A DNA stretch of 45,706 nucleotides, from UHGV virus genome UHGV-1374573; one strand, 5' to 3'. The stretch is from a virus. Numbering within the stretch: the first letter of the stretch is position 1; every line of letters begins with the position of its first letter. Both the position numbers and the translations under genes were made by a program. Positions 1 through 23,685 of this stretch are shown piece by piece. The notes under the pieces were generated by a model, which saw only the letters and a list, made by a program, of their open reading frames with translations, did no database searches and was not told the origin of the DNA.

Positions 1-1011
1 ATCAGCTACAATATATTCAGGTAAATGACCGTAGGTCTCTTGAATTGAATTTAAAAATGGTATCATCGTTCTTGTATCAGTCGGATTTTGATACACATTA
101 TAAGATAAAACGAATTGAGAATTTGTCGCTATTTGTAAATTATAACCTGGCTTGAGTTGTCCATTTTTCATATGATCTTCTTTCATTCTCATAAATGTGG
201 CATCATGATCTGTTTTAGAATAACTATTTCTATCCTTTAAAATAGATTTTTGGACGTCGTATTTATGCTTTCGCCCAGAGTAATCATTAATTTGCTTTTT
301 ATATTGTTTAATTTTAGTTCTTTTGAGCCGTATTTGTTTTCTTATTTTAGTACATTTTTCATTATCGATATGTTGATTTAAATCTTCGATTTCTTTATCC
401 AAATGACTACCAATCAAATCTATTTCTTCCTTTGTTAAGTCATTATCGTGATCTTTTTTAATCTCAGGTATGATTTTATTTGTTACCAATTCATGATAGA
501 GTGCTTTAGAATCTTCATTCATCTTTGTCTCATGGTTTTGAATACTCTTTTTCCATACAAATGTATATCGATTGGCATTCGCCTCAACTTTCGTACCATC
601 AATAAAAATGGTTTGATCATCTATAAGATGTTGTTTCAAACACTGACTATGAAATTGAATAAATAATGATTCTAATAAAGCATCTACTTTTGGATTGACT
701 CTAAATCGATTAATCGTTTTATAAGAAGGCTTTTGATTTTGTGATAACCACATCATCCGGATGCTATCATTAAGTAATTTTTCTATCTTACGTCCTGAAA
801 ACACAGATTGTGTGTAGGCATATAGAATGACTTTTAACATCATTTTGGGATGGTACGAGGTTGCACCACGATGATGTCTGAATTCATCGAATTCAGTTTT
901 AGGAATTGTTTCTACAATATCATTGACATGTCGTGAAATATCATTTGTGGGGATAAGAACTGAAGTTTCCAATGGTAGAGTAAGTTGAGTCATGTTATAA
1001 TCTTTATACAT
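1..1011 (-). CDS. IS1182-family DDE transposase, N-terminal 337 codons (ATG at 1011). The ORF runs off the window start and continues in frame at 45706..45047
   Basis: The reverse-complement translation is [41 protein letters not shown]...PEYIVAD. A GAGGTG RBS lies 7 nt upstream of the ATG. The ORF is still open at window position 1, which is why it is absent from the ORF track. Confidence 0.8.
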
Positions 1012-1217
1012 AAGGCACCTCGTTAATTTAGTTTAGTGACGTTTATTAAATTATACGAAAGTGCCTTATTTTTTTAAAGTATTTCAATGTAAAATTACAT
1101 ATAAATACAAAGTATTTTGGCGAGACTCTTGAGGGAACAGGACAAGCTGAAGACTACAGGCTGAAGCTGTCCCCTAAGAAAGCGAGCCAACAATACGGAG
1201 TATTGTAAATAAAGAAG

Positions 1218-1251
1218 CCAGTAAATGAATTTGTTAAAACTCATTTACTGG
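1218..1251 (-). terminator. Perfect 11-bp stem-loop (CCAGTAAATGA/TCATTTACTGG, 12-nt loop) in the IS leader, followed on the minus strand by a T-rich tract. Likely a read-through barrier upstream of tnp
   Basis: Inverted repeat read directly from the sequence. IS elements commonly carry such terminators inside their ends. Confidence 0.4.
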
Positions 1252-5598: not shown

Positions 5599-7401
5599 TT
5601 ATCTATATTTATCTCTGATATAATACATACCTTTTAATCCTACTTTTTTGTATAAACTGTTTATTGTTGTTGCTTGGAAATTACACCACTCAATAGCAGT
5701 AGCGTACTGCATACGACCTGGATTTTTAGGGTTCCAACGCATTCGATATAAAGTATTCTTTCCTTTATTAAAGAATTGTTTTCTAACGAACTTAGCGCCA
5801 CCTATAATACCGTTACGTGGACTCGTCCAACCTTGTCGTTTGGCGTATGCTATAGAAGCATTAGGGTTATTGTCATATGCTGCAATACCAAAGTAGTTAT
5901 AAATACCATAACGTCCACTAGCAAAGTTACTACGTCCATATCCACTCTCTAAGAATGCGTGAGCAATTAAATATATTTCGTTAACGTTGTATTTCTTACA
6001 ACCGTCTGCGAAAGCTTTACCTTGACCGGATAAAGTACCTTTACCTTTAAGTATCTTATTCAACTTACTTACTGGTATACCTTGATACTTACCTAAATCC
6101 AACATTTGATACCTTTGTACTGAACTATTCCATATAGTGTTAGGGTTCATATACTTACTTGTTTGTGACCTAGAAGCATTGCCCCAACCCCAACTGTAAG
6201 ATTTTTGAGGCATACCATGTGCCATTTGCGCGTTCAGTGCTTGTTGGAAAGTATATTTACTTTTCTCTACAACTACACGAGGTTTATTCGAAGTTCTGTT
6301 TGTTGTTTTGCTTTTTTTGTCTGTCGGTTTGTCGTTCTGTTCAGGGTTATCGACCGAAGTTTTAGGTTTAATCTTTATGGTTGTCTTTGTAGTTGTTGTG
6401 GTAATCGTTTCTGTGAGTAATTTATCTCTTTTTAAATATAAACCTATTATTTTCTTTTCAACTTCTTTATATTTACTTTCATCAGGAATACCGTTTTTGA
6501 TTAAGTCGTAATTAATTAAATCTTTCATAGAACGCCATATATTAGGGTCTGCTTTGATTGATGATTCAGATAGTTTTACCTTACTCCAACTTAGCAACCA
6601 AACGCCGTAGATTAACGCTCTGATTTGATTGAGCATGAATTGCCGTTTACTCTCTGTTTGTCCTCCACAAACTTCCATAACAAGCCAACCTGGATGTTCT
6701 GGCGCTTCTTCTGAATCAGGTCTAGGCGTCCATACACGCTCACGGTCTATATATACATGAGGGTATTCATCCTCATTTACATATTTATTACGTTGTAAAT
6801 ATAATTCTTCAACAGAACGCATATGTGTACTCTCTTTGATATATATACCTTTTACTTTCCCTATCAACTTTTGACCTTCAACCATATAATGATAAATGTA
6901 CTCCAAATCATCGTCTAAATCATATGCGAATGATGTATAGGAAACTTTAGTAACCTCTTTGGTTATAGGTTTCGTTTGTTCTTTTTTGTTTTTAGGAGTG
7001 TTGTCATTAGAGGGTTTAGACGGTGTGTTACTTGATTTAGATGGTTTCTTAGTTTCTGCATGATAAGGAGGTCTGACGAACCCACTTATACCATAGTATG
7101 TGTGTTTTTCTAACGAACCAGGAGAACCGGTATAACCGTTGGAATTTCGCCAATTTTGGTCCACACTGGTGAAGTAACTCTTGTTAGATGGACCTACTAC
7201 AACAGCTGTATGTCCTGTACCATTATTATAGGAACCCTTTCCCCAAACTGCCATGTCACCAGGTTTCGGAACAAAGTTTCTAGTATTTCTATAAAATTTA
7301 AATCCTCTAGGGTATCTATACCATGCCATAGCTATAGCGTTTCCTGTTGTTTTAAAATGCCAATATCTATTGAAAATGTAGTTTGGTAAATCCCAACATT
7401 G
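5599..7401 (-). CDS. Tail-associated peptidoglycan hydrolase (CHAP + GH73 glucosaminidase), exon 2. Spliced product is 636 aa
   Basis: The frame is open upstream of the annotated ATG at 7329 as far as 7401 and encodes QCWDLPNYIFNRYWHFKTTGNAIA, the CHAP catalytic-Cys motif, with no in-frame start codon. The C-terminus is GH73-like (YLIAHAFLESGYG...). Ends at the stop at 5599. Confidence 0.8.
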   Translation of the reverse strand, partial: QCWDLPNYIFNRYWHFKTTGNAIAMAWYRYPRGFKFYRNTRNFVPKPGDMAVWGKGSYNNGTGHTAVVVGPSNKSYFTSVDQNWRNSNGYTGSPGSLEKHTYYGISGFVRPPYHAETKKPSKSSNTPSKPSNDNTPKNKKEQTKPITKEVTKVSYTSFAYDLDDDLEYIYHYMVEGQKLIGKVKGIYIKESTHMRSVEELYLQRNKYVNEDEYPHVYIDRERVWTPRPDSEEAPEHPGWLVMEVCGGQTESKRQFMLNQIRALIYGVWLLSWSKVKLSESSIKADPNIWRSMKDLINYDLIKNGIPDESKYKEVEKKIIGLYLKRDKLLTETITTTTTKTTIKIKPKTSVDNPEQNDKPTDKKSKTTNRTSNKPRVVVEKSKYTFQQALNAQMAHGMPQKSYSWGWGNASRSQTSKYMNPNTIWNSSVQRYQMLDLGKYQGIPVSKLNKILKGKGTLSGQGKAFADGCKKYNVNEIYLIAHAFLESGYGRSNFASGRYGIYNYFGIAAYDNNPNASIAYAKRQGWTSPRNGIIGGAKFVRKQFFNKGKNTLYRMRWNPKNPGRMQYATAIEWCNFQATTINSLYKKVGLKGMYYIRDKYR

Positions 7402-8384
7402 CGTTTGTATTTAACTTAACGCCTTTCCCCGCATTAATTTCTTAATACGCTTGTGTAACGTTAAATTGCTCTATAAAAAGAGCCTCATGCTTTCACATGA
7501 GACTAGACTATATCTTAATATTCATTTTTAGCTTTTTTATAAGCTAAGTGTGCTTCTTCTGCAGTTTCATAAACACCTAAGTATATAAATTTCTTGTTTT
7601 TGTAAAGCTGCGCTTGATATTTGTTTAGATGTGGTTTGTAAGTTACTCCTGTATATCCTGTCTTATTATGATATTTTCGTCGATTGTTTGCATTTTCTTC
7701 ATGACTAACCCATCTGCAATTTGATGGTTTATAATCGTCATCGTTGTTAATTCTGTCTAATTCAGCACCTTCGAATGGTACATCCCCCATATCTTTGTAG
7801 AATTGCATAAAGTCATCTTTCCACTCATCACAAACCTTTATACCTCTACCGCCATATGCGCTGTAAAAATCATAGTTAGAGTTGTAACATCGTTGCTTCA
7901 TACCTTTCCATTTATTATAAATTAAAGTTCCAGTCATACCATGTTTTTTAGAATGACTAACTTTATTCAAACAACCACAACTTTTAGAATAACCATTTTT
8001 CACTTCGGTACCAATCATTATTTTTTCATTACCGCATCTCGTACAGTAACATTTATATAGTTTCTTTTTATGTTTATTTCTGCCATAAAACTCTAGAACT
8101 TTAAGATAATTAAACTGCATTCCTACAATGTCCATTTGACCGCTCCTTATCAATCGTCAAATACATTGTATCACACATGAATATTTAATGCACTGCCTAT
8201 CAATTGATAGTACATAGTCGTTGAAGCTTCCTCTACTATTACCATAGAGGCTTGCCTGCTGATTGCCCAATCCTTAATATTTTTTAACTTTCACGCTTAC
8301 CGTTACCAGTTACGTTGTAGTTATTAAGGTTCTAAGGGTGTCCCAGCAATTCACATTATTTTTTTACATGGAACCCATTAATTA
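7402..8384 (-). mobile_element. Group I intron (983 nt) interrupting the virion-hydrolase gene and carrying an HNH homing endonuclease ORF
   Basis: Exon 1 ends ...GGAGCU. Intron nt 10-15 (GGUUCC) can pair with it as a 6-bp P1 helix, with U.G at the splice site. The intron ends in G (..ACAAACG|CAATGTTGG). Joining the exons restores ...VDVDGYYGA-QCWDLPNY..., a contiguous CHAP N-terminus. The HEG lies within the intron at 7515-8153. Confidence 0.75.
7515..8153 (-). CDS. Intron-encoded HNH homing endonuclease (Zn-finger-like CxxC/CxC N-terminus, HNH_3 motif, AP2-like DNA-binding C-terminus)
   Basis: 212 aa. ELDRINNDDDYKPSNCRWVSHEENANN is an HNH_3 motif. YTGVTYKPHLNKYQAQLYKNKKFIYLGVYETAEEAHLAYKKA resembles an AP2 domain. 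It is a paralog of 22297-22980. Confidence 0.75.
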   Translation of the reverse strand: MIRSGQMDIVGMQFNYLKVLEFYGRNKHKKKLYKCYCTRCGNEKIMIGTEVKNGYSKSCGCLNKVSHSKKHGMTGTLIYNKWKGMKQRCYNSNYDFYSAYGGRGIKVCDEWKDDFMQFYKDMGDVPFEGAELDRINNDDDYKPSNCRWVSHEENANNRRKYHNKTGYTGVTYKPHLNKYQAQLYKNKKFIYLGVYETAEEAHLAYKKAKNEY

Positions 8385-8492
8385 AGCTCCATAATAACCA
8401 TCTACATCAACTCTTCTGCCAATCATCCTTTTTGCCCATGCTGCAACTTCCGAAGCAGTAGGTTTTCTTTTTTTAGGGCTAGGTAATCCCAT
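8385..8492 (-). CDS. Tail-associated peptidoglycan hydrolase, exon 1 (36 codons, MGLPSPKKRKPTASEVAAWAKRMIGRRVDVDGYYGA)
   Basis: ATG at 8492 with a GAGGTGG RBS. The ORF ends in TAA right after the 5' splice site. Confidence 0.75.
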
Positions 8493-8542
8493 ATATCCAC
8501 CTCATTTCTGGCATAATAAAAAGTCGATACATAAGTACCGAC

Positions 8543-8989
8543 TTAGTTTCCAAATAGCAAAGGGGCAATTACTTTACTTAGTGTTTCTAATAGTGCGAAT
8601 GCACCTACAAGTATAGCGCCTAAAGTTTTATTAGATAATTTCCTTTCTTCCAATATAAATTGCTTATCTTCAATCTTGCTATCTAATGTTTTTCTGATAT
8701 CCCTTACTTCTTCGTTAACTTCTTCAAAACGCCTATTTGTATTAGAATTTGATTGCCTCAACTCTTTCACAAGTCCTTCTATGCTATTCGCCATTCTATC
8801 CGTATTTTTTTCAGTGTTAGCAGATGTACCTTTTAATTCTGTAATAACTTGTATCGTTTCCGTATATCTATCGTCATGTTTTTCATCAACTTTGTATAAC
8901 TTTTCAGTCGTTTTATCTATATTAGTTTCGGCTTTATCCATACGTTTTTCTAAGCTAGTAATTCTTTGTTCTTCTATTGTTTTTTGCAT
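8543..8989 (-). CDS. XhlA-like protein: coiled coil plus a C-terminal transmembrane anchor
   Basis: 148 aa, charged and coiled-coil over most of its length. C-terminal TM segment TLGAILVGAFALLETLSKVIAPLLFG. Confidence 0.5.
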   Translation of the reverse strand: MQKTIEEQRITSLEKRMDKAETNIDKTTEKLYKVDEKHDDRYTETIQVITELKGTSANTEKNTDRMANSIEGLVKELRQSNSNTNRRFEEVNEEVRDIRKTLDSKIEDKQFILEERKLSNKTLGAILVGAFALLETLSKVIAPLLFGN

Positions 8990-21510: not shown

Positions 21511-21934
21511 TCGTTACACTCCTTTGTAAAGTATTGTGTCTGTATTTAAAAATAAGCCGAATGATACCGTGCTTCGTGTACTGATCTATGTCAGTTATCA
21601 CTTCTTGTGTATCAATCCGACTTTTAATGAATGAGTAATGTTCGATTTCAAATTCAGTATTAAGTACATGACCTAAAAACTGAATGATTTGTGCTACTTC
21701 ATCACGATTTCTCGCTTGACTATACACGTGTAAGGTTACGCCTACATCTTCAAACATACTCGTTGTCGTTTCTTTATTAGTGACGTTTGTTTCACCCACA
21801 ACGATATATGGGTAAACAGCGTCTTTTTGAACGCAATCAAAAACCCTACCACCAAGCTGTTTTTTGATGATAGGGTTGCTTTTTAATTTGTTATATATCT
21901 TGTTAAACAGATACCGTTCTACTGATACCCACAT
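21497..21934 (-). CDS. Tail completion / tail-component protein
   Basis: 145-aa ORF between the gp10-like gene and the major tail protein. Confidence 0.55.
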   Translation of the reverse strand: MWVSVERYLFNKIYNKLKSNPIIKKQLGGRVFDCVQKDAVYPYIVVGETNVTNKETTTSMFEDVGVTLHVYSQARNRDEVAQIIQFLGHVLNTEFEIEHYSFIKSRIDTQEVITDIDQYTKHGIIRLIFKYRHNTLQRSVTNGAE

Positions 21935-21946
21935 ATCTTAACCACC

Positions 21947-22094
21947 TTATGAAAAATACTTATTGAAAAACGCTCTACCTTCATCGATTGCAGGTTCCCA
22001 AAAAGGCTGTGCATGTTGCCCTTTAGTTGTGTGCCAATGTCCGTCTGCGTCTTTGTAACGCCACGGGATATTCTTTGCACGACTACCACCTGGA
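21947..22094 (-). CDS. HK97-gp10-family head-tail joining protein, exon 2 (...PGGSRAKNIPWRYKDADGHWHTTKGQHAQPFWEPAIDEGRAFFNKYFS)
   Basis: Open frame downstream of the second HEG. It encodes the conserved QPFxxPA C-terminal motif of the gp10 family and has no start codon of its own. The 3' splice site is inferred to within about 10 nt. Confidence 0.6.
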
Positions 22095-23109
22095 CCGACT
22101 GCGTATCATCTTGTTATCGTAAAGGCTTTTTATCCTTTACTTCTTACAGTCACCTGTAAGTTCGGCGTACATTTTCAACCAATAAAAAAGACAACCATTA
22201 TTGGTTGTCGGACACTCTTGGGAAGATTATATTTATTCACTTCCTACGCTCTACAGTGCTCAATAGCCTTTCGCAATCTATTAAGTTACCTCGGTGTTAT
22301 CTTTTCCAGAATTGTCTTTGTCCTAAAGGTCTAACAACAGCGTAACCTTTATCACCACGAGCAATCCTTGCATATATTGTGTTAACTGATATTTTGTATA
22401 TTTTTTCTAATTCTTGCGGCGAGTACTTAATACCATCTAGGAATACCCATTTATTGCTAGTTCTGTTTTTAGCTTGTTCATTCCTTGTTATCCAAGTACA
22501 ATTTGAAGGTTCGTAGTTACCGTTAATATCTTTTCTTTCAATAGTTAAGCGTTCATTGTAACCATTATTATATGCCCAGTCATAGAAATTTTTATAACTA
22601 TTTTTCCATTCTTCACAGATAGTTATTCCTCTAGCACCATAATTTTTGTATCTATCGGAATTTGGTTTATAGCAACGTTTCTTCATATTTTCCCATATAT
22701 AATACAGTCTAGAATCTGTATCACCATGAGTTTTTTTAGCCTTGCTTGTCGCTATCTTTTGTAAGCATCCACAACTTTTGGAATAACCTGTTGTTATAGA
22801 TTTTGCAGATTTAACTGCAGTATTTCCACAATCACACTCTACTAACCAATACAGGTATCTATCTCCTTTAGGTGGATTGTGAATCCTTACTGGTTCTATG
22901 ACTTTTAACATATTGAATTTTTTGCCTGTCAAGTCTCTAAAATTACCTTCAAAAACTTCGCCTTTAGAATTGGTTAGCATAACATCACTCCTTATGGATA
23001 TTATACCAAACCTTCATCGTATATACCAGTCGATATTTTACATATAAGACTTTCACCGATTTTGCCCGATTTTTAACTTACCATTACTGATAAGTGGGAC
23101 ATACACACT
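22095..23109 (-). mobile_element. Second group I intron (~1015 nt) interrupting the HK97-gp10-like gene and carrying an HNH homing endonuclease ORF
   Basis: Exon 1 ends ...GGGGU. Intron nt 10-14 (GUCCC) form P1 with U.G at the splice site, the same spacing as in intron 1. The exon-1 ORF runs on into VVCMSHLSVMVS* instead of the conserved C-terminus, which lies beyond the HEG. The proposed intron end is ...GCAGUCGG. Confidence 0.65.
22297..22980 (-). CDS. Intron-encoded HNH homing endonuclease (paralog of 7515-8153)
   Basis: 227 aa. Shares the FNMLKVIE / YSKSCGCL / RCY blocks with HEG 1. HNH_3 motif: IERKDINGNYEPSNCTWITRNEQAKN. Confidence 0.75.
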   Translation of the reverse strand: MLTNSKGEVFEGNFRDLTGKKFNMLKVIEPVRIHNPPKGDRYLYWLVECDCGNTAVKSAKSITTGYSKSCGCLQKIATSKAKKTHGDTDSRLYYIWENMKKRCYKPNSDRYKNYGARGITICEEWKNSYKNFYDWAYNNGYNERLTIERKDINGNYEPSNCTWITRNEQAKNRTSNKWVFLDGIKYSPQELEKIYKISVNTIYARIARGDKGYAVVRPLGQRQFWKR

Positions 23110-23363
23110 ACCCCTGTACCGTAGTTGACGTACACTGCATACTCACTACCAATATTAATAACGCCTGTTAATCCGCCCTTCTTAAAGTCCATAGAAACAC
23201 TTTCTCTAAGATAACCGGTATCAACAGGCATATTACTAACTATTGAATTGTGAATAATTGTTGTTGTCTTGGCTATACCTTTTTTAGCCCATCTAATCGT
23301 TTCTTTTTCGAACTCCTCAAGTTCCTTAACTAAGTCCCAATTACCATATTTAACCTTAGCCAA
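23110..23363 (-). CDS. HK97-gp10-family head-tail joining protein, exon 1 (...VDTGYLRESV...YVNYGTG)
   Basis: The N-terminal 84 residues match the gp10 family (VDTGxLRxS). The listed ORF 23073-23363 includes 12 intron-encoded codons. Confidence 0.65.
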
Positions 23364-23685
23364 TAGGACACTCTTTCAACCGAGTAAGATTGATCTCTTG
23401 TTGTCCGCCTTGGTCGACAGGTTCTCCTACTACTTCGTAAGTTTTACCGTTGTGTTTAAATAAGTTTGTGTTAGTTATTGGCAGGCTGTACGGCGTATAT
23501 AGGTTTCTGTCGTATGATTGGTTCATTTGATGAAACTTGAGTTGTTCAGATGAAGTAGGCGTATCCATAAATCCTTGTATTGTTTTTTCGCTCTTAAAGC
23601 GCTCTTGTTCACGTGGATACTCTCCTACAACTTCTCTTGAACCTAATTCGATTGTATGAGGAAACTCATTTAATGGATTAAACAT
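23356..23685 (-). CDS. Head closure / head-tail connector protein
   Basis: 109-aa ORF in the conserved position between the adaptor and the gp10-like gene. Confidence 0.5.
   Translation of the reverse strand: MFNPLNEFPHTIELGSREVVGEYPREQERFKSEKTIQGFMDTPTSSEQLKFHQMNQSYDRNLYTPYSLPITNTNLFKHNGKTYEVVGEPVDQGGQQEINLTRLKECPIG

What the first reader, a model, noticed from the sequence alone, without database searches (positions are those of the whole stretch)
22095..23109. Second group I intron (with a paralogous HNH endonuclease) in the HK97-gp10-like head-tail joining gene
ORF 23073-23363 matches the gp10 family through ...YVNYGTG and then diverges into 12 junk codons and a stop. The conserved family C-terminus (GPGGSRAKNIPW...HAQPFWEPAIDEGRAFFNKYFS) is encoded after the HNH gene, at 22094-21947, in an ORF that has no start codon. 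Exon 1 ends GGGGU and intron nt 10-14 (GUCCC) form P1. This is the same 9-nt-then-guide-sequence layout as intron 1. The two endonucleases share FNxLKVxE, YSKSCGCL and RCY motifs, so this phage carries two related mobile introns in two different essential structural genes. The exact 3' splice site (proposed after G at 22095) is an inference.
Basis: partly seen in the sequence, partly recalled or inferred. Interest (0 to 1): 0.75.

Follow-up and report, generated by a model that had tools for sequence, protein, structure and literature searches.

The report
Group I intron splitting a phage neck gene
A 1003-base self-splicing-type (group I) intron carrying its own homing-endonuclease gene interrupts the head-tail joining (gp10-like) gene of this Staphylococcus epidermidis phage; it is real and mis-annotated in public records, but it is an ordinary member of a widespread phage intron family.

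Summary
The gp10-like gene on the minus strand is split, with a 227-aa endonuclease ORF between the halves and a 38%-identical paralogue at 7515-8153.

The interpretation as a group I intron is supported, with one correction. The 3' splice site is after G22107, not G22095, so the intron is 23109..22107 (1003 nt).

- Removing the intron gives a 137-aa protein that is 80-99% identical (96-99% in close relatives) over its full length to 80 uninterrupted homologues.
- A P10 pairing (exon 2 AUACGCA with intron nt 3-9) lies next to P1 (GGGGU/GUCCC). [quoted passage not shown]
- P2-P9.1, including the P3/P7 pseudoknot, are 96-97.5% paired, against 29-42% in slid controls. 46 of 66 pairs show compensatory changes.
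- Rfam's Intron_gpI model misses the intron. It also misses an annotated split-gene member of the family, so that negative is uninformative.
- The family is widespread, with at least 120 viral contigs.
- Relatives (ROSA, BE28, a C. difficile phage, a Lysinibacillus prophage) sit 21 nt upstream in the same gene, with retuned guide sequences.

This is a new member of a known kind. Splicing itself is inferred, not shown.

The parts
23110..23363 (-). Exon 1 of the gp10-like (head-tail joining / tail-completion, Neck1) gene. TTG start at 23363; last bases GGGGU (23114..23110).
   Evidence: Pfam PF04883 E=2e-9. PHROG 5 E=9.6e-25 for the spliced protein. Aligns to CNPx gp11 up to this point.
22107..23109 (-). 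Group I intron, 1003 nt. It begins AGUGUGUAU and ends ...GAUAACAAGAUG, with the terminal G at 22107.
   Evidence: Exact insertion relative to intronless alleles. P1/P10 table. Covariation. Coordinates.
23096..23107 (-). Contiguous internal guide. Intron nt 3-9 UGUGUAU pair with exon 2 AUACGCA (P10). Intron nt 10-14 GUCCC pair with exon 1 GGGGU (P1, with a U.G pair at the splice site).
   Evidence: P1 of 5-6 bp and P10 of 6-8 bp are kept in 9 introns in 4 exon contexts, with compensatory changes.
23076..23095 (-). P2, ACUUAUCA/UGGUAAGU with a GUAA loop. The in-frame stop UAA (23075..23073) follows directly, just before P3.
   Evidence: (helix 1).
23046..23069 (-). 5' strands of P3 (UCGGGCA), J3/4 (AAA), P4 (UCGGUG) and P5 (GUCUU).
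   Evidence: In 43 sequences P3 is 99.3% paired and P4 98.4% paired.
22988..23008 (-). Extended -10-like TGGTATAAT (23008..23000) and RBS AAGGAG (22993..22988) in front of the endonuclease ORF.
   Evidence: Read from the sequence. A TATAAT is kept at the same place in ROSA, BE28, S. aureus and Lysinibacillus versions. The consensus scan did not flag it because there is no -35.
22297..22980 (-). Endonuclease ORF (227 aa) in the loop of P5. Its last codons overlap the P5 3' strand.
22119..22303 (-). 3' ribozyme core: P5', P4', P6, P7 (GAGCGUA/UACGCC with a bulged A), P7.1, P3', P8, P7', P9 (GUGA loop) and P9.1.
   Evidence: 89-97.5% identical to ROSA, BE28 and PG-2021_93. 68-76% identical to introns of crAss-like, Clostridioides and Bacillus phages.
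22184..22209 (-). Terminator-like hairpin GACAACC-AAUAAU-GGUUGUC plus U6 inside L8. It competes with P8 for the CAACC strand.
21947..22106 (-). Exon 2 of the gp10-like gene, starting AUACGCAGUC; stop codon at 21949..21947.
   Evidence: The spliced ORF is 414 nt (137 aa).

Best explanation
Window 23109..22107 (minus strand) is a mobile group I intron in the gp10-like head-tail joining gene of a Staphylococcus epidermidis Rockefellervirus-type phage.

The intron is of subgroup IA type, with a P7.1 hairpin between P7 and P3'.

Proposed splicing. The late-operon transcript folds into the P3-P9 core. The guide sequence aligns exon 1 (GGGGU, P1) and exon 2 (AUACGCA, P10). Guanosine attacks after U23110, and exon ligation follows the terminal G22107. 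The product is a 137-aa protein, ...YVNYGTGVYAVGPGGS....

A ribosome that enters the intron stops at the UAA just before P3.

The P5 loop carries an endonuclease gene with its own -10 element and ribosome-binding site. This endonuclease presumably cuts intron-less alleles during co-infection, so that repair copies the intron in (homing).

Shown here: the insertion boundaries, restoration of the ORF, the RNA fold and its covariation, and family membership by homology.

Inferred: splicing activity, endonuclease activity and its target, and homing.
For: - The same 1501-nt stretch is 100% identical in phage PG-2021_90. About 25 related phages carry the gene uninterrupted, with the flanks 95-97% identical.
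- Alignment to CNPx places a 1003-nt insertion.
- 80 IMG/VR loci encode an uninterrupted 137-aa protein 80-99% identical to the predicted spliced product. Their DNA reads GGTACAGGGAT|ATACGCAGTCGG across the junction.
- P1 has a U.G pair and P10 is contiguous with it. Both are kept through compensatory changes in 9 introns.
- The hand-drawn P2-P9.1 structure with the P3/P7 pseudoknot is 96.1% paired. 46 of 66 pairs have changes on both sides, no shuffle out of 500 reaches this, and slid controls give 33-42%.
- On 43 diverse sequences in a sequence-only MAFFT alignment, 97.5% of cells are paired against 29-40% in controls.
- RNAalifold independently recovers P3, P4, P6, P7.1, P8, P9 and P9.1.
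- The MFE fold of the ORF-less construct gives the same helices, z=-4.1.
- The 3' core has homologues in 69 phage records. One is Lactobacillus phage JCL1032, whose terL is annotated as a joined CDS; removing that intron there restores the Walker A motif GRKNGKT.
- Tourasse & Kolsto 2008 (PMC2504315) list an intron of phage ROSA as a BLASTN match of a B. cereus prophage group I intron. They class those prophage introns as IA1 or IA2.
- PG-2021_90 and BE20 are deposited as isolated phages and carry this intron, so the gene must be expressed.
Against: - There are no RNA or splicing data.
- Rfam RF00028 gives no hit, even at E<=10 on sub-regions. The same model also misses ORF-less family members and JCL1032, so the test lacks power for this family.
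- P1 in the window has G.U where BE20 has A-U, which is slightly weaker.
- A terminator-like hairpin in L8 could reduce read-through.
- The endonuclease lacks the canonical HNH general-base His (Arg149 instead), so its activity is unproven.
Confidence: 0.93

Rival explanations
1. A free-standing homing-endonuclease gene has inserted into the gp10-like gene. It has split the gene into two separately translated polypeptides, or inactivated it. No RNA splicing is involved.
For: Public annotations of BE20, BE28, ROSA and phiCDKH02 treat the pieces as separate genes. HNH-type genes are often free-standing in phages (background knowledge).
Against: - Exon 2 has no ATG, GTG or TTG in frame and no RBS.
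- About 330 nt of non-coding sequence flank the ORF and fold into a covarying group I core.
- Removing exactly 1003 nt restores the uninterrupted gene to within one base in 60.
- ORF-less versions of the same RNA interrupt other genes.
Confidence: 0.03
2. It is a group I intron that no longer splices: a decaying element in a defective prophage.
For: - The window differs from phage PG-2021_90 elsewhere and may be a prophage copy. A host-type sRNA match lies at 999-1224.
- P1 has a G.U pair at position -2.
- A terminator-like hairpin lies in L8.
Against: - Every helix of the window copy is intact. The structure was drawn on the window sequence and is matched by its relatives.
- The endonuclease ORF is intact and 96% identical to that of BE20.
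- The intron region is 100% identical to that of an isolated phage.
Confidence: 0.04

Closest known systems
Group I introns of Bacillus cereus-group prophages (term-IVS1, term-IVS2, TMP-IVS1 to IVS3; Tourasse & Kolsto 2008, PMC2504315) and the phage ROSA intron they match
   Same: - Both are IA-type ribozymes in phage morphogenesis genes.
- Both occur with or without endonuclease genes.
- In both, homologous introns sit at different sites of one gene, with P1 and P10 adapted to each site.
- The ROSA 3' core is 89% identical to the window's.
   Different: The host gene here is the gp10-like gene, and the phage infects S. epidermidis. The insertion point is 21 nt downstream of the ROSA-type site. 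I found no paper describing an intron in this gene.
terL intron of Lactobacillus delbrueckii phage JCL1032 (CDS annotated as joined in NC_019456)
   Same: It has the same RNA family and layout: 8-10 nt of P10 guide, then the P1 guide, then P3, AAA, P4 and onwards. It aligns with the window intron throughout the core.
   Different: It is ORF-less (226 nt), lacks P2, and interrupts the P-loop of the terminase.
Phage T4 td, nrdB and sunY introns (subgroup IA2, with I-TevI to I-TevIII). This comparison is from background knowledge and was not tested here.
   Same: Each is a self-splicing intron in a phage protein gene, with the endonuclease ORF looped out of the core and carrying its own promoter. 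A stop codon lies early in the intron.
   Different: The T4 ORFs sit in P6 or elsewhere and are mostly GIY-YIG enzymes. Here the ORF is in L5 and is an uncharacterised HNH-like family. There is one P7.1 hairpin here rather than P7.1 plus P7.2.
Intron in the tail-hydrolase (hyd) gene of staphylococcal siphophages (DW2, PMC4124061; E72, PMC8125051), which is the window's 'intron 1'
   Same: It is in the same phage and is a group I intron in a structural gene. Its endonuclease is a paralogue of the one in intron 2.
   Different: The ribozyme is of a different class. Rfam RF00028 scores the ORF-less intron at that site in phiIPLA5 at 93.8 bits. The intron-2 profile finds no similarity to it in the window.

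Membership tests
Group I intron | 5' splice site follows a U that forms a U.G wobble with the internal guide sequence (P1) | tested here: met
   U23110 pairs with G at intron nt 10, in GGGGU/GUCCC. The IGS covaries with exon 1 in relatives: GCGAU/GUCGC, GCGGU/GCCGC, UGGGU/GCCCA, AACGGU/GCCGUU.
Group I intron | Intron ends in G (omega-G), and the start of exon 2 can pair with the guide (P10) | tested here: met
   G22107 is the terminal G. P10 is 7 bp (AUACGCA/UGUGUAU). The S. aureus version changes both sides (AUAUGCU/AGCAUAU).
Group I intron | Conserved core in the order P3-P4-P5-P6-P7-P3'-P8-P7'-P9, with a P3/P7 pseudoknot | tested here: met
   All helices were found in the canonical order. 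Pairing is 96.1% (8 sequences) and 97.5% (43 sequences), against 29-42% in controls. P3 is 99.3% and P7 100% paired.
Group I intron | Guanosine-binding site in P7 (a G-C pair next to a bulged nucleotide) and an A-rich J3/4 | tested here: met
   P7 is G-[A bulge]-GCGUA/UACGCC. The bulge column is A or C in all 43 sequences. The first J3/4 position is A in 43 of 43. Calling this the G-binding site is by analogy with Tetrahymena P7 (background knowledge).
Group I intron | Match to the Rfam covariance model RF00028 | tested here: not met
   There is no hit at gathering score or at E<=10. The model also misses ORF-less relatives and the annotated JCL1032 intron, yet it finds the hyd intron. The model is therefore insensitive to this family.
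Group I intron | Self-splicing that depends on guanosine and Mg2+ | not testable with these tools
   This needs an in vitro transcript or RT-PCR.
Group I intron, subgroup IA | Extra helix or helices (P7.1, with P7.1a or P7.2) between P7 and P3' | tested here: met
   P7.1 is GGAAG/CUUCC, replaced entirely by CCAGU/ACUGG in ROSA and BE28. It is 100% paired in 43 sequences. Some members carry a nested extra hairpin. I did not settle IA1 versus IA2.
HNH (beta-beta-alpha-Me) homing endonuclease | HNH motif: general-base His at the end of strand 1, then Asn, then a metal-binding His or Asn in the helix | tested here: inconclusive
   - PHROG 374 'HNH endonuclease' matches at E=7.6e-68.
- The model has a beta-beta-alpha unit at residues 145-170.
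- There is no Pfam, NCBIfam or PDB sequence hit, and Foldseek finds nothing.
- The position of the first His is an invariant Arg149. N160 and N172 are invariant.
HK97 gp10-like head-tail joining / tail-completion protein (host gene) | Match to PF04883 above the curated cut-off, and position between the head-closure and tail-terminator genes | tested here: met
   37.5 bits against a cut-off of 21.4. PHROG 5 E=9.6e-25. Gene order matches CNPx gp10-gp11-gp12.

The most novel reading that the evidence does not exclude
The gp10 introns form a natural series. One intron lineage moved 21 nt within a single gene, from site A (..GCGAU|AUACGU..) to site B (..GGGAU|AUACGC..).

Site B in intron-less alleles matches the spliced site-A junction at 9 of 10 bases. 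The only change needed in the contiguous P10+P1 guide was GUCGC to GUCCC.

The endonuclease closest to the window's outside Staphylococcus (Lysinibacillus, 61% identity) still sits at site A.

This pattern fits RNA-guided transposition by reverse splicing rather than endonuclease-driven homing. Direct evidence for that route is lacking in bacteria and phages (review PMC3984707).
Probability: 0.3. Interest if true: 0.55.

Novelty: new member of a known kind. Interest (0 to 1): 0.35.

Why it matters
Practical value. An essential neck gene is mis-annotated as two or three fragments plus a stray 'HNH endonuclease' (once even 'dUTPase') in several deposited Staphylococcus and Clostridioides phage genomes. 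The standard Rfam model cannot flag this intron family, although it occurs in at least 120 viral contigs, including crAss-like phages.

Biological value. Near-identical ribozymes (93-97.5% identity) sit at two sites 21 nt apart, with retuned guides and swapped endonuclease genes (43% identity). This gives a compact, testable case of how group I introns change target. It extends what was described for Bacillus prophage tape-measure genes and is not a new principle.

Tried and rejected
- Rfam was run on the whole window, on 21800-23500 and on 22080-22320. No group I hit appeared. I did not take this as evidence against an intron, because the model also fails on ORF-less relatives and on JCL1032.
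It removes YAVG, which is present in all 80 uninterrupted homologues, and it gives no P10.
- I considered P7 = GGACA/UGUCC, using the end of the ORF, and rejected it. UGUCCGA is the P3 3' strand: it covaries with UCGGGCA across BE28, ROSA and CDKH02.
- I considered the short hairpin GACAACC/GGUUGUC as P8. Relatives show that P8 is the strand directly before GAAAAUG (CAACCAAU/AUUGGUUG). This pairing covaries in Lysinibacillus as CAACCGUC/GAUGGUUG.
- A sequence profile of the intron found no second copy in the window.
- Pfam, NCBIfam, PDB sequence and Foldseek searches of the endonuclease gave nothing usable.
- Kwan et al. 2005 (the ROSA genome paper) and Lavigne & Vandersteegen 2013 could not be read. 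I cannot exclude that they mention the ROSA intron in this gene.
- A first regular expression for the P8 region was faulty and was replaced.

Full report
**What the window is.** The stretch 21900-23400 is 100% identical to Staphylococcus phage PG-2021_90 and 96% identical to vB_SepS_BE20. About 25 other S. epidermidis Rockefellervirus phages (CNPx, CNPH82, PH15, phiIPLA5, phiIPLA7 and others) match only the two flanks, 95-97% identical in about 498 nt. The gene order in CNPx is head-closure protein, then HK97 gp10 family protein (137 aa), then tail terminator.

**Checking the observation.**
- ORF 23073-23363 (-) is 96 aa and hits PF04883. After YVNYGTG it reads VVCMSHLSVMVS and then a stop.
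- The C-terminal family sequence lies at 22094-21947 in a frame without a start codon.
- Between them is a 227-aa ORF (22297-22980) matching PHROG 374 'HNH endonuclease' at E=7.6e-68.

All of this is confirmed.

**Exact boundaries.**
- BLAST against intron-less CNPx shows the two flanks abutting, with a 9-nt overlap.
- Eighty IMG/VR loci encode an uninterrupted 137-aa protein. Their DNA across the junction is GGTACAGGGAT ATACGCAGTCGG, encoding GTGIYAVGPGG.
- The window reads ...ACAGGGGT|AGTGTG... at the 5' side and ...CAAGATG|ATACGCAGTCGG... at the 3' side.
- With the group I rules (exon 1 ends in U, intron ends in G), the intron is 23109..22107, 1003 nt. The spliced ORF is 414 nt and encodes ...YGTGVYAVGPGGS.... 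It differs from the commonest intron-less alleles at one base in 60.

**Splice-site pairings.** Intron nt 10-14 (GUCCC) pair with exon 1 (GGGGU), giving a U.G pair at the splice site. Intron nt 3-9 (UGUGUAU) pair with the first seven bases of exon 2 (AUACGCA). P10 and P1 therefore use one contiguous guide. The same arrangement holds in nine introns in four exon contexts, with changes on both sides:

| Intron | P1 (exon 1 / guide) | P10 (exon 2 / guide) |
|---|---|---|
| BE20 | GGGAU/GUCCC | – |
| S. aureus prophage | – | AUAUGCU/AGCAUAU |
| ROSA, BE28, PG-2021_93 | GCGAU/GUCGC | AUACGU(U)/(A)ACGUAU |
| Lysinibacillus | GCGGU/GCCGC | – |
| Arcanobacterium phage (tape-measure gene) | UGGGU/GCCCA | 8-bp P10 |
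| JCL1032 terL | AACGGU/GCCGUU | – |

**The ribozyme core.** I read a structure from the window sequence (coordinates):
- P2, 8 bp with a GUAA loop.
- P3 UCGGGCA/UGUCCGA, spanning the ORF.
- J3/4 AAA.
- P4 UCGGUG/CACCGA.
- P5 GUCUU/AAGAU, with the ORF in its loop.
- P6 CUUAAUAG/CUAUUGAG.
- P7 G-A(bulge)-GCGUA/UACGCC, crossing P3 to form the pseudoknot.
- P7.1 GGAAG/CUUCC.
- P8 CAACCAAU/AUUGGUUG.
- P9 CUUACAG-GUGA-CUGUAAG.
- P9.1 GUAAAGG/CCUUUAC.

Tests of this structure:
- On an alignment of eight ORF-trimmed introns, 96.1% of cells are standard pairs. The eight are the window, BE28, ROSA, Clostridioides phiCDKH02, Arcanobacterium TPWB06, crAss-like cr7_1, JCL1032 and Bacillus PJN02.
- 46 of 66 pairs change on both sides. 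No shuffle out of 500 reaches this, and sliding the partner by 1-3 columns gives 33-42%.
- RNAalifold, with no guidance from my drawing, predicts P3, P4, P6, P7.1, P8, P9 and P9.1.
- The single-sequence MFE fold gives the same helices, z=-4.1.
- On 43 diverse sequences, including 35 ORF-less IMG/VR members in a sequence-only MAFFT alignment, pairing is 97.5% against 29-40% for slid partners. Up to six pair types occur per position. P3 is 99.3% and P7 100% paired.

This is the canonical group I architecture. The P7.1 helix between P7 and P3' places it in subgroup IA. I did not resolve IA1 versus IA2.

**Why Rfam is silent.** RF00028 gives nothing on the window or its sub-regions. It is equally silent on ORF-less relatives and on JCL1032 terL, which is annotated as a joined CDS. 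For JCL1032, removing the predicted 226-nt intron restores the Walker A motif GRKNGKT. The model itself works: it scores the ORF-less hyd-gene intron of phiIPLA5 at 93.8 bits. The negative result reflects a blind spot of the model for this family.

**Distribution.**
- The 3' core alone finds 69 phage records from Staphylococcus, Clostridium, Clostridioides, Bacillus, Streptococcus, Lactobacillus, crAss-like and cyanophage sources.
- A profile finds 144 copies in those loci, up to five per locus.
- The gp10-like gene is a recurrent target. It is interrupted in ROSA, Rosita, IME1365_01, BE28, PG-2021_93, phiCDKH02, S. aureus prophages and a Lysinibacillus prophage.

**Two sites, 21 nt apart.**
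- Most gp10 introns sit at site A, between YA(I/V) and YVE/N. These are ROSA, BE28, PG-2021_93, phiCDKH02 and Lysinibacillus.
- The window, PG-2021_90, BE20 and S. aureus prophages sit at site B, seven codons downstream, between GTG(I/V) and YA.
- The 3' cores of site-A and site-B introns in S. epidermidis phages are 93-97.5% identical. Their endonucleases are only 42-43% identical.
- The nearest non-staphylococcal relative of the window's endonuclease (Lysinibacillus, 61% identity) is at site A.
- The intron-less site B (GGGAU|AUACGC) resembles the spliced site-A junction (GCGAU|AUACGU) at 9 of 10 positions.
- The pattern is therefore retargeting by small guide changes, plus exchange of the endonuclease cassette.
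- The same kind of adaptation was described for Bacillus cereus prophage tape-measure introns. That paper also lists a ROSA intron as a BLASTN match of a prophage group I intron (PMC2504315).
- Reverse splicing is the textbook candidate for such moves, but it lacks direct evidence (PMC3984707). I cannot distinguish it here from endonuclease-driven ectopic homing.

**The endonuclease.**
- It has 1430 homologues, all unnamed and without Pfam domains.
- Invariant residues include C49, C51, C70 and C72 (a likely zinc site), plus R102, C103, R149, N160, Q169 and N172.
- The AlphaFold model is confident (pLDDT 92) and has a beta-beta-alpha unit at residues 145-170.
- The usual general-base His is Arg149.
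- 'HNH-like' is reasonable. Catalytic competence is untested.

**How it most likely works.**
- Shown: the boundaries, the fold and the restoration of the ORF.
- Inferred: the late transcript self-splices. Translation entering the intron stops at UAA 23075-23073, just before P3. The endonuclease is made from its own TGGTATAAT/AAGGAG signals and promotes homing into intron-less phages.
- Indirect support for splicing: phages deposited as isolates (PG-2021_90, BE20) carry the intron in a gene that is otherwise uninterrupted in all relatives.

**Novelty.** I found no paper describing an intron in this gene. Two relevant papers could not be read. The element is a new, currently unannotated member of a known intron family. 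It is not a new kind of system.

Noticed in passing
window 22184-22209 (-): L8 holds a terminator-like hairpin plus U6 that shares its 5' strand with P8. T-runs of 5 or more in the P8 region occur in 11 of 30 distinct family members whose P5 is interrupted. About half of all such hits have a long ORF ending there. T-runs occur in 0 of 40 ORF-less members (Fisher p=2.5e-5). A second design nests a clean hairpin (AAGACG..CGUCUU plus U5) inside L8. This may be a terminator or switch tied to the endonuclease cassette.
   Followed up: partly
window 7402-8384 (-): [quoted passage not shown] Exon 1 ends ..GGAGCU. The IGS GGUUCC is at intron nt 10-15 and the terminal G at 7402. It carries an HNH-AP2 ORF at 8153-7515 (AP2 domain E=6e-8). 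phiIPLA5 has an ORF-less intron at the same site, scored 93.8 bits by Rfam Intron_gpI. Comparable hyd introns are reported for DW2 and E72.
   Followed up: partly
window 7100-8800 compared with MZ417351.1: PG-2021_90 is 100% identical at the gp10 intron but lacks intron 1, matching only 25% of this stretch at 90.7%. PG-2021_93 and BE28 have intron 1. The window is therefore a mosaic relative, and the two introns assort independently among near-identical phages.
   Followed up: partly
[not shown]
   Followed up: partly
Rfam RF00028 against L007, L008, L009, L010: The Rfam group I model misses this whole phage intron family, including the ORF-less copy in JCL1032 terL, which is annotated as a joined CDS. 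Family members occur in crAss-like phages next to terminase and portal genes (cr7_1, cr131_1, cr6_1, cr118_1).
   Followed up: partly
L005 (PP197657.1 phage Rosita) 1850-2509; L003, L002, L006: Public annotations mislabel the intron ORF as 'deoxyuridine 5'-triphosphate nucleotidohydrolase' in Rosita. They list the gp10 exons as separate hypothetical proteins in BE20, BE28, ROSA and phiCDKH02.
   Followed up: no
window 999-1224 (+): This stretch matches the S. aureus small RNA tsr24 (RF02577, 112 bits, E=3e-24). The match lies near ORFs on the opposite strand to the phage late genes.
   Followed up: no
L093, L048, L083 (IMG/VR contigs): Single viral contigs carry three to five copies of this intron family within a few kilobases.
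   Followed up: no
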